Shown piece after piece: positions 24,201-27,200 of a stretch of DNA of 64,000 bases. The position numbers are program-made. Source of the DNA: Escherichia coli O157:H7 (GTDB lineage Bacteria > Pseudomonadota > Gammaproteobacteria > Enterobacterales > Enterobacteriaceae); NCBI RefSeq assembly GCF_013167455.1, contig NZ_CP038328.1. One strand, written 5' to 3'. The number at the start of each line of letters is the position of its first letter. The stretch's first letter is position 1.

Positions 24201-27200
24201 GTGGATCTGGTTTTCGCGCCCTCGGTAAAAGAGATCTACCCGAACGGTACTGAAACCCATACTTACGTTGACGTTCCAGGGCTTTCGACCATGCTGGAAG
24301 GCGCCAGCCGGCCGGGGCATTTTCGCGGCGTGTCGACTATCGTCAGCAAGCTGTTTAACCTGGTCCAGCCGGACATCGCCTGCTTCGGTGAAAAGGACTT
24401 TCAGCAACTGGCGCTGATCCGCAAAATGGTTGCTGATATGGGCTTTGATATTGAGATTGTCGGTGTGCCAATTATGCGCGCCAAAGACGGTCTGGCACTG
24501 AGTTCCCGTAACGGTTATCTGACGGCAGAACAACGCAAAATTGCGCCCGGTCTGTACAAAGTTTTAAGTTCGATTGCCGACAAATTGCAGGCTGGCGAAC
24601 GGGATCTCGATGAAATTATTGCTATTGCCGGGCAAGAACTGAATGAAAAAGGCTTCCGCGCCGATGATATTCAGATTCGCGATGCCGACACATTGCTGGA
24701 AGTCTCTGAAACCAGCAAACGGGCAGTAATTCTGGTAGCCGCCTGGCTTGGCGATGCTCGCCTGATCGACAACAAAATGGTCGAGCTGGCGTAATACTTA
24801 TACTCTAAATAATTCAAGTTGCAAGTTGCAGGAAGGCGGCAAGCGAGTGACAAATTCGTCAGGAACGAATTTGCCCAGCCGCAGGCTGGCCTTCGGTGAG
24901 AGACATGGATGTCTCTCATTAATCCCCAGGAGCTTACATAAGTAAGTGACTGGGGTTAGCGAACGCAGACGCAGCACATGCAATTTGAAGTATGACGAGT
25001 ATAACTGGCGCTACGGCTGATGGCGCCAATTATTAATTTGCCCCACGTCATGGCGATGGCGTCTGTAAGCAATTATTCATAACGCAGACAACTTAGTTAA
25101 TCAGCCTATCAATCTCAGCAAGAGATAAATTTGTCATCTCTGCAACGTCTTCCCGAGACATCCCTTTACTCAGAAAACGCTGGGCGAATTCTTGCCTCTC
25201 CTCCTGTCTTCCCTGCTGAATCCCCTTCTCAATCCCTTTCTCTTCAAACCACTGTGCCAGCGTCATCATAGACTTCCCTCCCGTTTCCCTGTCTCTCAGC
25301 ACACCATAAAACAAATCCGCTTGTTCAGTATGACCGCGTTGCAGCATATAGTTTTGCATGGCAACTAACTGACTTTCGCTAGTGTACCCTTCGTCAATCA
25401 GCGTGACCAGTTGCTCCAGCAATAACATTAAGTCGCGCTGGCGAATATGTTTTTGCAGTAGTTCGAGAATCGCAATCCGCCGATGTTGCATGATTTCGTC
25501 ATCCGGTGTGATGGTGATATCCACCAGCGGGAAAGGACTGTTATAGACGCGTCGCGCCAGCTCCGGCGAGTAAAACATATCAAACCAGCACATTGAGAGC
25601 GGATAAGGTGTGGCCTCGCCCTGATAAAAGAGAATCGGCACTACCAGCGGTAGTTTGTCGTGATCCGCCTCCAGATGCCGATGCATGGCGGCTATAGAAT
25701 AACGCATCATGCGAAAGGCCATTTTCTTATCCGGCTTGCTTTGGTGTTCAATCACAACATGCAGATAACCGGGATTGCCCTGCATTTGCACGGAATAGAG
25801 CACGTCCGTGCTGTGTCCTTTAAGGCTCTCTTCAATGAAACTCCCCGACTCTAAATGAAGCGTGTTGAGGTCACAAAGTTCGCGTAATTCCACTGGCAAA
25901 TGTATCTCCAGAAAGTCGCGAGCCGTCTCCGCATGCATTAAAAATTGTTTAAATACCGCGTCATGCGGTGTGGTACTCGGTGCATCCATCTTCCCTGTCT
26001 TCCGTGTTGTCTTGCGTGAAGGCAGTATCCAGTCAAGGCGTGCTATCGTCAGCCACCTCTTTATTGTTTACCGAGCAGCGTTCAGAGAAATATCAATTCG
26101 TTACAGGCGATACATGGCACGCTTCGGCGCGGTACGCAAACTGCTGATGCAAATGCCGTCAGATGAGTAGACACTAAACAAAAATCGGGCAATACTGCGT
26201 GAGAATTTCCTCAAAGCAGGCACCGCCTGCTTCGTTAACGACAGGGTAGAAAGGTAGAAGTTATGATTCGCACGATGCTGCAGGGCAAACTCCACCGCGT
26301 GAAAGTGACTCATGCGGACCTGCACTATGAAGGTTCTTGCGCCATTGACCAGGATTTTCTTGACGCAGCCGGTATTCTCGAAAACGAAGCCATTGATATC
26401 TGGAATGTCACCAACGGCAAGCGTTTCTCCACTTATGCCATCGCGGCAGAACGCGGTTCGAGAATTATTTCTGTTAACGGTGCGGCGGCCCACTGCGCCA
26501 GTGTCGGCGATATTGTCATCATCGCCAGCTTCGTTACCATGCCAGATGAAGAAGCTCGCACCTGGCGACCCAACGTCGCCTATTTTGAAGGCGACAATGA
26601 AATGAAACGTACCGCGAAAGCGATTCCGGTACAGGTTGCTTGATTGTTATCCCTGCGGCTGGTTACTCACCAGCCGCGACATCGTCTCCAGCGAATCCGT
26701 TCTTAAGATATAAAGTCGTTTTAGTAACAACGGATTATCCCCCGGTTTTACTTTGCCTTTCATGGTTGTCACCGCCAGGTGAAATCCGGCATCGTTTGCT
26801 GCCTTCACGGCTTTGTCATTAAAGCCGCCAAACGGATACGAAAGATACCAGACATGCGGATTAAATTGCGCCAGAGCGCGACGTGAACGTGCAAAATCAA
26901 ACAGAATATTGTGCTCACTACGGCTCAGTAATATGGGTCGGCGATAACCATCTACCCGATGCAAAAAATGGGTATGTGACTGGAAATCAAATACATCGCG
27001 AATTTCGTTAAGCTCAGAAACGCTCATAAATTGCAGCGATTTTGGTTCCCACTTCTGCGGGTGACGTTTGATGCGCGAGGTAACAATAAACGCCGTCGCC
27101 TTCATGCCATATTGTTTCAACACAGGATACGCATAGCGGCTCACTGACTTGAGGCCATCATCAAAGGTAATCACCACCGCTCGCGCAGGAAGATTGATCT

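What the first reader, a model, noticed from the sequence alone, without database searches (positions are those of the whole stretch)
25093..25989. Rpn-family transposase-like nuclease (rpnC/yadD) embedded in the pantothenate cluster
A PD-(D/E)xK transposase_31-like gene sits between panC and panD on the opposite strand, flanked on one side by the ERIC element. Rpn proteins are reported to promote RecA-independent recombination, and the locus is adjacent to the variable yad island.
Basis: partly seen in the sequence, partly recalled or inferred. Interest (0 to 1): 0.3.

Follow-up and report, generated by a model that had tools for sequence, protein, structure and literature searches.

The report
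Known E. coli rpnC toxin–antitoxin gene
This is the ordinary, already characterised E. coli gene rpnC (yadD), a DNA-cutting toxin that carries its own small antitoxin gene inside it. It sits between the vitamin B5 genes panC and panD, exactly as in other E. coli.

Summary
The ORF at 25093..25989 (minus strand, 298 aa) is real. It is RpnC/YadD: Pfam Transposase_31 E=1e-87, TIGR01784 298 bits against a cut-off of 52, 97% identical to K-12 RpnC, and 100% DNA identity to a RefSeq E. coli genome annotated rpnC. It lies between panC and panD on the opposite strand. A long-form ERIC repeat (24799-25003) lies on its 3' side, and the yad fimbrial operon lies beyond panB.

Published work (PMC10400941) shows that rpn genes are genes within genes. 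The full-length PD-(D/E)XK endonuclease (RpnC_L) is a toxin. A small C-terminal protein (RpnC_S), translated from an internal start, is its antitoxin. Variable 4-aa repeats set the pairing specificity, and the family is linked to phage defence.

This allele has all the required sequence features:
- the catalytic residues;
- the PDDEI motif;
- a GGGAGGG Shine-Dalgarno 6 nt before ATG-241;
- the repeats KGIE-KGIQ-QGRQ-EERQ.

All 9 amino-acid differences from K-12 fall in the C-terminal part, and none falls in the nuclease domain.

Among 78 enterobacterial pan loci that include both panC and panD, an rpn gene sits between them in 10: 6 of 6 Escherichia and 4 others. One further locus keeps only a remnant.

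Verdict: already known, low interest.

The parts
25093..25989 (-). rpnC (yadD) full-length ORF, 298 aa: RpnC_L, a PD-(D/E)XK DNA endonuclease (the toxin)
   Evidence: ORF. PF04754 E=1e-87. TIGR01784 298 bits, above its cut-off. Annotated rpnC in an identical RefSeq genome. 97% aa identity to BL21 RpnC, and the same to K-12 RpnC.
25366..25971 (-). Transposase_31 / YhgA-like N-terminal domain (aa 7-208). It holds D10, D62, E81, Q83 and R93 (equivalent to RpnA D11, D63, E82, Q84, R94) and the PDDEI motif at aa 162-166.
   Evidence: Pfam envelope. Alignment to K-12 RpnA. The RpnA mutant phenotypes are in PMC5350276. Residues 1-204 are identical in amino-acid sequence to K-12 despite 13 synonymous changes.
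25093..25269 (-). Nested ORF for the predicted small antitoxin RpnC_S, in the same frame: 58 aa from ATG M241 (25269..25267), or 57 aa from M242 (25266..25264).
   Evidence: Sequence. RpnA's proven internal start M244 aligns with RpnC M242. RpnC_S was detected and shown to block RpnC_L in K-12 (PMC10400941). The domain is HTH-like.
25276..25282 (-). Internal Shine-Dalgarno GGGAGGG, 6 nt upstream of ATG-241 (the GGAGG core ends 7 nt upstream)
   Evidence: Read directly from the sequence. By analogy with the RBS mutations K240R/E241D that abolish RpnA_S (PMC10400941).
25192..25239 (-). Hypervariable 4-aa (12-nt) repeat tract KGIE-KGIQ-QGRQ-EERQ (aa 251-266), inside both RpnC_L and RpnC_S
   Evidence: TRF finds period 12 with 2.7 copies at 25211-25242. 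The repeat number differs among Escherichia alleles, giving proteins of 290 to 310 aa. The role of repeat number in specificity was shown for RpnC (PMC10400941).
25990..26167 (-). 178-nt rpnC 5' leader/promoter region. It belongs to the inserted segment and is absent from enterobacteria that lack rpnC.
   Evidence: Alignment of occupied and empty panC-panD sites. The leader length is the same in both rpnC clades.
26168..26196 (+). Predicted panD promoter (TAGACA-17-AATACT). Its -35 hexamer marks the right-hand junction of the rpnC insert.
   Evidence: Consensus scan only. The conserved block starts directly after the panC stop codon in 4 of the 6 aligned empty sites, namely C. youngae, C. amalonaticus, K. 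pneumoniae and Pluralibacter.
24799..25003 (.). ERIC/IRU repeat in its long form, bounded by TA...TA. It carries a 71-nt internal insertion (24851-24921) and lies between the panC stop codon and the panC terminator hairpin.
   Evidence: 203-bp insertion relative to BL21. Terminal inverted arms. Exact 32-nt ERIC core. Fold z = -9.9. The 127-bp form sits at the same TA in E. albertii. Present at this site in 427 of 5426 complete E. coli genomes.
25006..25028 (+). GC-rich hairpin followed by ATTATTAATT: a terminator-like site shared by the convergent panC and rpnC transcription units
   Evidence: Consensus scan. Conserved in K-12-type and other Escherichia loci. rpnC-panC is listed as a convergent excludon in MG1655 (PMC12288877).
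23943..24794 (+). panC (left neighbour)
26263..26643 (+). panD (right neighbour)

Best explanation
The feature is the chromosomal E. coli gene rpnC (yadD). It works as a one-gene, two-product toxin-antitoxin module. The full-length product RpnC_L (298 aa) is a Mg-dependent PD-(D/E)XK DNA endonuclease with little sequence specificity, and it damages DNA when unchecked. A second product, RpnC_S (about 58 aa, HTH-like helical bundle), is translated in the same frame from an internal SD and ATG (M241/M242). It binds the identical C-terminal domain of RpnC_L and blocks the nuclease. A tract of 4-aa repeats in the first helix of this shared domain sets which S pairs with which L, and it diversifies rapidly between strains. 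Release of the nuclease, for example when the L-S complex dissociates during phage infection or at alkaline pH, is thought to give abortive-infection-type phage defence. Increased RecA-independent recombination on overexpression is a by-product of the DNA breaks. Shown here: identity, synteny, intact catalytic residues, the internal SD/ATG, the repeats and their variation, and amino-acid change confined to the C-terminal part. Shown in the literature for K-12 RpnC: the S product exists, RpnC_LS induces SOS, and RpnC_S blocks it only when the repeat number matches. Inferred: that this 97%-identical allele behaves the same way, and that RpnC itself defends against phage, which has been shown only for the plasmid paralog RpnP2.
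For: Catalytic residues D10/D62/E81/Q83/R93 and the PDDEI motif are conserved against RpnA, and those positions were mutationally validated in PMC5350276. The nuclease domain is under strong purifying selection against K-12: 0 nonsynonymous and 13 synonymous changes in aa 1-204. All 9 replacements fall in aa 205-298. The internal GGGAGGG lies 6 nt before ATG at M241, and RpnA's proven start M244 aligns with M242. A 12-nt periodic tract is present, and repeat number differs among 15 aligned alleles. Some E. coli strains carry an extra stand-alone rpnC_Ss gene downstream, as PMC10400941 describes. The C-terminal domain resembles HTH modules. Experimental basis: PMC10400941 and PMC5350276.
Against: Nothing was measured for this allele. 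No PADLOC-DB v2 defence model matches the nuclease domain. No defence genes neighbour the locus; the neighbours are core metabolic and fimbrial genes. Phage defence has not been demonstrated for RpnC itself. RpnC was among the weaker paralogs in the toxicity, SOS and recombination assays. My strict consensus scan found no internal sigma-70 promoter, and a relaxed scan found only a weak 8/12 candidate at 25409..25381. dN/dS in the C-terminal part is 0.27 against K-12, so this pairwise comparison gives no formal evidence of positive selection.
Confidence: 0.85

Rival explanations
1. The physiological role of RpnC is to promote gene acquisition. It is a low-activity nuclease whose breaks or nicks seed RecA-independent (illegitimate) recombination of incoming DNA. 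It is not a defence or toxin-antitoxin module.
For: Overexpressing RpnC raised RecA-independent recombination 2.9-fold in a conjugal assay (PMC5350276). The gene sits at the edge of a highly recombined or divergent zone: panB is 92% and panC 95% identical to K-12, against 99.8% for panD.
Against: Deleting rpnA-D did not change the basal recombination frequency. The effect needs overexpression and goes with toxicity. The nested antitoxin and repeat-matched specificity are hard to explain under this model. The two models are not strictly exclusive.
Confidence: 0.2
2. rpnC is the transposase of an insertion-sequence-like mobile element that inserted itself between panC and panD.
For: Pfam and NCBIfam names call it 'putative transposase' or 'ISNCY family transposase'. 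The gene plus a 178-nt leader is a discrete insert absent from most enterobacterial pan loci.
Against: No terminal inverted repeats or target-site duplication bound the segment. The position is fixed in 6 of 6 Escherichia species. PMC10400941 finds no defined ends and no evidence of autonomous transposition, and notes that no autonomous PD-(D/E)XK transposase is known. The NCBIfam ISNCY and RpnA equivalog scores (325 and 314 bits) are far below their cut-offs of 583.
Confidence: 0.03
3. The gene is a decaying, functionless relic of an ancient mobile element, retained by chance.
For: [quoted passage not shown] Several lineages show decay: a frameshift in UBA5654, in-frame N-domain deletions in E69 and S. 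diarizonae, and only a remnant in S. arizonae.
Against: In this allele the ORF is intact and all catalytic residues are present. The 204-aa nuclease domain shows 13 synonymous and 0 nonsynonymous differences from K-12. At least 4996 of 5426 complete E. coli genomes keep the locus at 80% coverage or more. Both products are expressed in K-12.
Confidence: 0.05

Closest known systems
E. coli K-12 RpnC (YadD, b0132)
   Same: Same genomic position and orientation between panC and panD. 97% aa identity, with residues 1-204 identical. Same number of 4-aa repeats. Same internal SD and double-Met start.
   Different: There are 9 substitutions, all in aa 205-298 (E205G, K239E, E264V, R265S, F272L, T286A, S289P, R295K, L296V when read window to K-12), and the protein is 2 aa shorter at the C-terminus. 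A 203-bp ERIC and a 22-bp insertion lie in the 3' intergenic region.
E. coli RpnA (YhgA), the biochemically characterised exemplar, with its intragenic antitoxin RpnA_S
   Same: About 49% aa identity. Same domain layout. Catalytic D/D/E/Q/R residues and the PDDEI motif are conserved, and the internal start aligns.
   Different: The C-terminal domain is essentially unrelated in sequence, and K-12 RpnA has no repeat tract. No PDB entry was detectable from RpnC_S by sequence apart from a designed repeat protein and a weak sigma-factor match.
rpnC + rpnC_Ss two-gene alleles of other E. coli strains (e.g. AH21C062, FDAARGOS_1286, PS10-3)
   Same: Same locus and the same N-terminal domain at 92-96% aa identity.
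   Different: AH21C062 and FDAARGOS_1286 carry 306-aa RpnC with more repeats of the RQEV/RQEE type. PS10-3 carries a shorter 290-aa RpnC with fewer repeats. AH21C062 and FDAARGOS_1286 also have a separate 65-67-aa stand-alone antitoxin gene downstream, which PS10-3 retains only as a partial pseudogene. The window has no second copy and has ERIC in that interval instead.
ERIC/IRU 127-bp MITE-like repeats of enterobacteria
   Same: Conserved core, terminal inverted repeats, TA at both ends, a long stem-loop fold, and an intergenic, co-transcribed position (PMC2229807).
   Different: This copy is 201-205 bp long because of a 71-nt internal insertion and a 7-nt duplication. The canonical 127-bp form occupies the same TA in E. 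albertii.

Membership tests
Rpn / YhgA-like family (PF04754 Transposase_31; TIGR01784) | Profile-HMM match above the curated cut-off | tested here: met
   PF04754 293 bits against a cut-off of 21. TIGR01784 298 bits against 52.1.
Rpn / YhgA-like family (PF04754 Transposase_31; TIGR01784) | PD-(D/E)XK active-site residues (RpnA D11, D63, E82, Q84, R94) and the PDDEI motif | tested here: met
   D10, D62, E81, Q83, R93 and P162-I166 are invariant in the alignments. The residues are defined in PMC5350276.
Rpn / YhgA-like family (PF04754 Transposase_31; TIGR01784) | PD-(D/E)XK (restriction-endonuclease-like) three-dimensional fold | tested here: inconclusive
   AlphaFold2 with a 15-sequence alignment gave mean pLDDT 54.8. 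The order of secondary-structure elements around D62/E81 is compatible with the fold, but the model is too poor for a fold search. No solved homolog was found by sequence.
Rpn / YhgA-like family (PF04754 Transposase_31; TIGR01784) | DNA endonuclease activity and toxicity on overexpression | not testable with these tools
   Shown for K-12 RpnA in vitro, and for RpnC in vivo as toxicity and SOS induction (PMC5350276).
RpnL/RpnS gene-within-gene toxin-antitoxin (Zhong et al. 2023) | In-frame internal translation start with its own RBS ahead of the variable C-terminal domain | tested here: met
   GGGAGGG lies 6 nt before ATG M241/M242, and these align with RpnA's proven start M244. This is sequence evidence only; translation itself was not testable.
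RpnL/RpnS gene-within-gene toxin-antitoxin (Zhong et al. 2023) | Four-amino-acid repeats starting 8-20 residues after the internal Met, varying in number between strains | tested here: met
   The repeats start 10 residues after M241. There are 4 units here and other numbers in other Escherichia alleles.
RpnL/RpnS gene-within-gene toxin-antitoxin (Zhong et al. 2023) | The S protein binds and neutralises its cognate L protein | not testable with these tools
   Shown for K-12 RpnC with the dinD-lacZ assay (PMC10400941).
RpnC ortholog group (K-12 b0132) | Conserved synteny panC - rpnC (opposite strand) - panD, with high identity to K-12 RpnC | tested here: met
   The arrangement is the same in 6 of 6 Escherichia species loci.
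Insertion sequence / autonomous transposase | Terminal inverted repeats and a target-site duplication bounding the gene | tested here: not met
   No inverted-repeat pair or convincing direct repeat spans the ends of the segment. PMC10400941 reaches the same conclusion.
Catalogued anti-phage defence systems (PADLOC-DB v2) | Match to a defence-system protein model | tested here: not met
   The only hit is an 18-bit match of the C-terminal HTH region to a 'putative invertase' model. The library dates from 2023 and may simply predate Rpn.
ERIC/IRU repeat | Conserved central core, imperfect terminal inverted repeats, TA termini, multiple copies per genome | tested here: met
   Comparison with empty sites. 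A median of 6 matching places per E. coli genome, though some places are the pan locus itself. The family's properties are given in PMC2229807.

The most novel reading that the evidence does not exclude
The most novel reading still open has two parts. First, both enterobacterial rpnC lineages descend from a single ancestral insertion placed exactly between the panC stop codon and the -35 of the panD promoter. One lineage is Escherichia; the other, about 60% identical, is in Salmonella diarizonae, Pseudocitrobacter and UBA5654. After that insertion the gene diverged unusually fast and was repeatedly lost. The published suggestion is two independent insertions. Second, in the O157-type haplotype an ERIC element has landed inside the convergent rpnC-panC transcriptional overlap. 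There it could alter the stability of the panBC and rpnC/rpnC_S mRNAs, and so shift the toxin:antitoxin balance.
Probability: 0.3. Interest if true: 0.25.

Novelty: already known. Interest (0 to 1): 0.08.

Why it matters
It matters little beyond correct annotation. The gene is a named, experimentally studied E. coli locus present in essentially all E. coli. The useful correction is that 'transposase-like' is a misleading label. The locus is best read as a nested toxin-antitoxin and probable defence gene whose C-terminal specificity region differs between the O157-type haplotype and K-12. The window also gives a natural pair of alleles with the same repeat number but 7 amino-acid differences within RpnC_S. 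That pair could test whether L/S specificity depends only on repeat count.

Tried and rejected
- AlphaFold2 on a 15-sequence alignment (collected) gave pLDDT 54.8. That is too poor for a fold search, so none was run. I judged a deep homolog search to improve it unnecessary, because the fold is not in dispute.
- PDB sequence searches with the full protein found nothing.
- An Rfam scan of 24600-26400 found nothing above any gathering score. The only notable hit was a weak full-length match of the ERIC element to Vibrio V_AS5, at 22 bits against a gathering score of 96.
- PADLOC gave no relevant model.
- The strict promoter scan found no internal promoter for the short transcript. The relaxed scan gave only a weak candidate, TGGTCA-17-TACACT at 25409..25381, which I do not treat as evidence.
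- A search for IS-like terminal repeats around rpnC was negative.
- The supplementary files of PMC10400941 are not held, so I could not confirm the published RpnC_S start residue. M241 versus M242 is left open.
- I considered whether the window's C-terminal domain is a recombinant with an rpnC_Ss copy. The residues are mosaic, but the evidence is insufficient to decide.
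Full report
**1. Observation**

The window holds an uninterrupted 298-aa ORF at exactly 25093..25989 on the minus strand. Its neighbours are:
- panB, 23137-23931 (+)
- panC, 23943-24794 (+)
- panD, 26263-26643 (+)
- yadE, 26647-27876 (-)

A seven-gene chaperone-usher fimbrial (yad) operon lies upstream of panB. The segment 24795-26262 is 100% identical to E. coli strain 2017C-4109, where the ORF is annotated rpnC, WP_000339951.1. The wider window is an ordinary core-chromosome stretch running from fhuB to aceE.

**2. Family and orthology**

- The protein matches Pfam PF04754 (Transposase_31, YhgA-like) end to end at E=1e-87.
- It matches NCBIfam TIGR01784 (Rpn family recombination-promoting nuclease/putative transposase) at 298 bits against a cut-off of 52.
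- The equivalog models for RpnA, and for a paralog labelled 'ISNCY family transposase', score 314-325 bits. That is well below their cut-off of 583, as expected for a different paralog.
- It is 97% identical to RpnC of BL21 and of K-12, and occupies the same position and orientation as K-12 rpnC, b0132.
- Aligned with K-12 RpnA, the residues shown by mutagenesis to be needed for RpnA activity are all present as D10, D62, E81, Q83 and R93. In RpnA these are D11, D63, E82, Q84 and R94. The PDDEI motif is also present (PMC5350276).

**3. What it is now understood to be**

Kingston et al. 2017 showed that overexpressed RpnC raises RecA-independent recombination 2.9-fold, lowers viability by 59% and induces SOS. 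Deleting rpnA-D had no effect on basal recombination.

Zhong et al. 2023 then showed the following:
- RpnS binds and blocks the toxic full-length nuclease, RpnL.
- The shared C-terminal domain carries 4-aa repeats whose number varies between strains.
- For RpnC specifically, only an RpnC_S with the same repeat number as RpnC_L blocks SOS induction.
- A plasmid paralog, RpnP2, protects against T-even phages.
- The genes lack IS-like ends and are unlikely to be transposases.

**4. Features of this allele**

- On the coding strand the sequence reads GAAACG GGAGGG AAGTCT ATG ATG ACG. This places a strong Shine-Dalgarno (GGGAGGG, 25282..25276) 6 nt before ATG M241 (25269..25267), which is followed by M242.
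- RpnA's experimentally proven internal start, M244, aligns with RpnC M242.
- The predicted RpnC_S is therefore 57-58 aa.
- Ten residues after M241 comes the tract KGIE-KGIQ-QGRQ-EERQ, at 25192-25239. Tandem Repeats Finder detects a 12-nt period there.
- The remaining C-terminal 30 aa look like a helix-turn-helix.

*Comparison with K-12.* The 204-aa nuclease region shows 13 synonymous and 0 nonsynonymous differences. All 9 replacements, plus a 2-aa shorter end, lie in aa 205-298. dN/dS is 0.27 for that part and 0.26 for the RpnC_S region alone.

*Comparison with other alleles.* Across Escherichia species and E. coli strains the repeat tract ranges from about one unit (PS10-3, 290 aa) to seven (310 aa). 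Some strains carry a separate 65-67-aa rpnC_Ss gene downstream, as the literature describes.

The allele is thus a typical intact member. Its specificity region differs from K-12 in sequence but not in repeat count.

**5. Surroundings**

*The ERIC element.* Relative to BL21, the window has a 203-bp insertion directly after the panC stop codon. It is a long-form ERIC/IRU element:
- It has TA at both ends, so TACT-TA-[element]-TA-ACTGG replaces TACTTAACTGG.
- It has 29-nt terminal inverted arms.
- It contains the exact 32-nt ERIC core (0 expected by chance).
- It folds at -107.6 kcal/mol, z = -9.9.
- Compared with the canonical 127-bp copy at the same TA in E. albertii, it carries a 71-nt internal insertion at 24851-24921.

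It lies between panC and the conserved hairpin terminator at 25006-25028, so it should be part of the panBC 3' UTR. In K-12, rpnC-panC is listed as a convergent 'excludon' with overlapping transcription (PMC12288877). The element occupies this site in 427 of 5426 complete E. coli genomes. No inverted or direct repeats bound the rpnC segment itself.

A PanD-seeded scan of one genome per species returned 80 loci, and 78 of them include both panC and panD.

| State of the panC-panD interval | Loci |
|---|---|
| rpn gene present | 6 of 6 Escherichia (84-97% aa identity) |
| rpn gene present | 2 Pseudocitrobacter, S. enterica subsp. diarizonae, and the MAG UBA5654, whose copy is frameshifted (58-65% identity) |
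| Remnant only | S. arizonae: a frameshifted C-terminal domain fused to the leader |
| No rpn gene | About 67 others (Citrobacter, Klebsiella, Raoultella, Enterobacter, Kluyvera, Pluralibacter, Lelliottia and others), with panC-panD gaps of about 35-290 bp |

*Insert boundaries.* Aligning occupied and empty sites shows that the insert ends exactly at TAGACA, the predicted -35 of the panD promoter (window 26168). In four of the six aligned empty sites this block follows the panC stop codon directly. Both rpnC clades share this junction, an identical 178-nt leader length, and a CTGGCGC motif on the left side. This favours one ancestral insertion with rapid divergence and repeated loss over the two independent insertions suggested in PMC5350276. 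However, leader identity between the clades is only 54-63%, against about 50% for shuffled controls. This is therefore a lead, not a result.

**6. Mechanism**

The best-supported mechanism is a nested toxin-antitoxin. RpnC_L is a PD-(D/E)XK endonuclease, and RpnC_S neutralises it by pairing through the shared, repeat-tuned helical domain. The likely physiological pay-off is phage defence, and stimulation of recombination is a side effect of DNA breaks.
- Shown here: all the sequence prerequisites, and the pattern of constraint.
- Shown elsewhere: the biochemistry and genetics for K-12 RpnC and RpnA.
- Inferred: the behaviour of this allele, and a defence role for RpnC itself.

Points against the defence reading are that PADLOC has no matching model and that the locus is not in a defence island.

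The rivals fare as follows:
- A dedicated recombination or horizontal-transfer factor is weakly supported and is not exclusive of the main model.
- An IS transposase is essentially excluded.
- A functionless relic is excluded by the strong purifying selection.

**7. Dead ends**

AlphaFold2 on the shallow alignment gave pLDDT 54.8, so no fold search was attempted. PDB sequence searches, Rfam and the promoter scans for the internal transcript gave nothing decisive. The supplement of PMC10400941 was not available.

**8. Verdict**

The finding is correct and the gene is real, but it is a named, annotated and experimentally characterised E. coli gene in its usual place. Novelty is 'already known' and interest is low. 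The only mildly new points are side observations:
- the shared insert boundaries in the two rpnC clades;
- the polymorphic long ERIC element inside the rpnC-panC convergent overlap;
- a sharp divergence gradient across rpnC. panB is 92% and panC 95% identical to K-12 (dS 0.33 and 0.24), while panD is 99.8% identical (dS 0).

Noticed in passing
window 24799-25003: A long-form ERIC element (TA...TA ends, 71-nt internal insertion at 24851-24921, 7-nt GTTGCAA duplication) is inserted between the panC stop codon and the panC terminator hairpin. It occupies this site in only 427 of 5426 complete E. coli genomes. The canonical 127-bp form sits at the same TA in E. albertii (L008), and the long form in Escherichia sp. 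E1V33 (L004). Rfam's Vibrio V_AS5 model weakly matches it end to end.
   Followed up: partly
window 23137-26643: There is a sharp divergence gradient against K-12. panB is 92.2% identical at the nucleotide level (dS 0.33) and panC 95.0% (dS 0.24). The rpnC 3' part is 94.3% and the rpnC 5' part 97.9%. panD is 99.8% (dS 0). A haplotype or recombination boundary seems to run through rpnC, probably linked to diversification of the adjacent yad fimbrial operon. The YadC-like adhesin is 369 aa here and 412 aa in K-12.
   Followed up: partly
window 25990-26173; loci L004-L013, L027, L018: Both enterobacterial rpnC clades have the same right-hand insert junction, directly left of TAGACA, the predicted panD -35. 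One clade is Escherichia; the other, about 60% identical, is in S. diarizonae, Pseudocitrobacter and UBA5654. They also share an identical 178-nt leader length and a CTGGCGC motif on the left flank. This fits a single ancestral insertion better than the two independent insertions proposed in PMC5350276.
   Followed up: partly
L018 3586-4000 (Salmonella enterica subsp. arizonae): The panC-panD spacer (415 bp) keeps the rpnC leader and a frameshifted remnant of the C-terminal (RpnS) domain only. The nuclease domain has been deleted.
   Followed up: partly
L007 (E. coli E69), L013 (S. diarizonae), L027 (UBA5654): Other lineages show decay of the nuclease domain. E69 has a 24-aa in-frame deletion (aa 131-154). 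S. diarizonae has a 16-aa in-frame deletion after the PDDEI/HRR region. The UBA5654 MAG has an N-terminal frameshift, which could be an assembly error.
   Followed up: no
L085 2637-2834, L086 2651-2854, L084 1292-1471, L009 about 2520-2720: Some E. coli and Escherichia genomes carry a second, stand-alone small gene (65-67 aa, annotated 'hypothetical protein' or 'transposase') between rpnC and panC. It is homologous to the RpnC C-terminal domain, and is the rpnC_Ss of Zhong et al. It is truncated in PS10-3 (L084). About 20 nt of 3' flank is duplicated with it, which points to a tandem-duplication origin.
   Followed up: partly
window 25006-25092: A 22-bp insertion relative to BL21 (25050-25071, GGCGATGGCGTCTGTAAGCAAT-like) lies in the rpnC 3' flank. 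Other Escherichia alleles share the longer version, so the K-12/BL21 state looks like a deletion.
   Followed up: no
window 25630-25681: A cluster of 9 synonymous differences from BL21 falls within 52 nt of the otherwise nearly identical nuclease domain. This may be a short gene-conversion patch, perhaps from a paralog.
   Followed up: no
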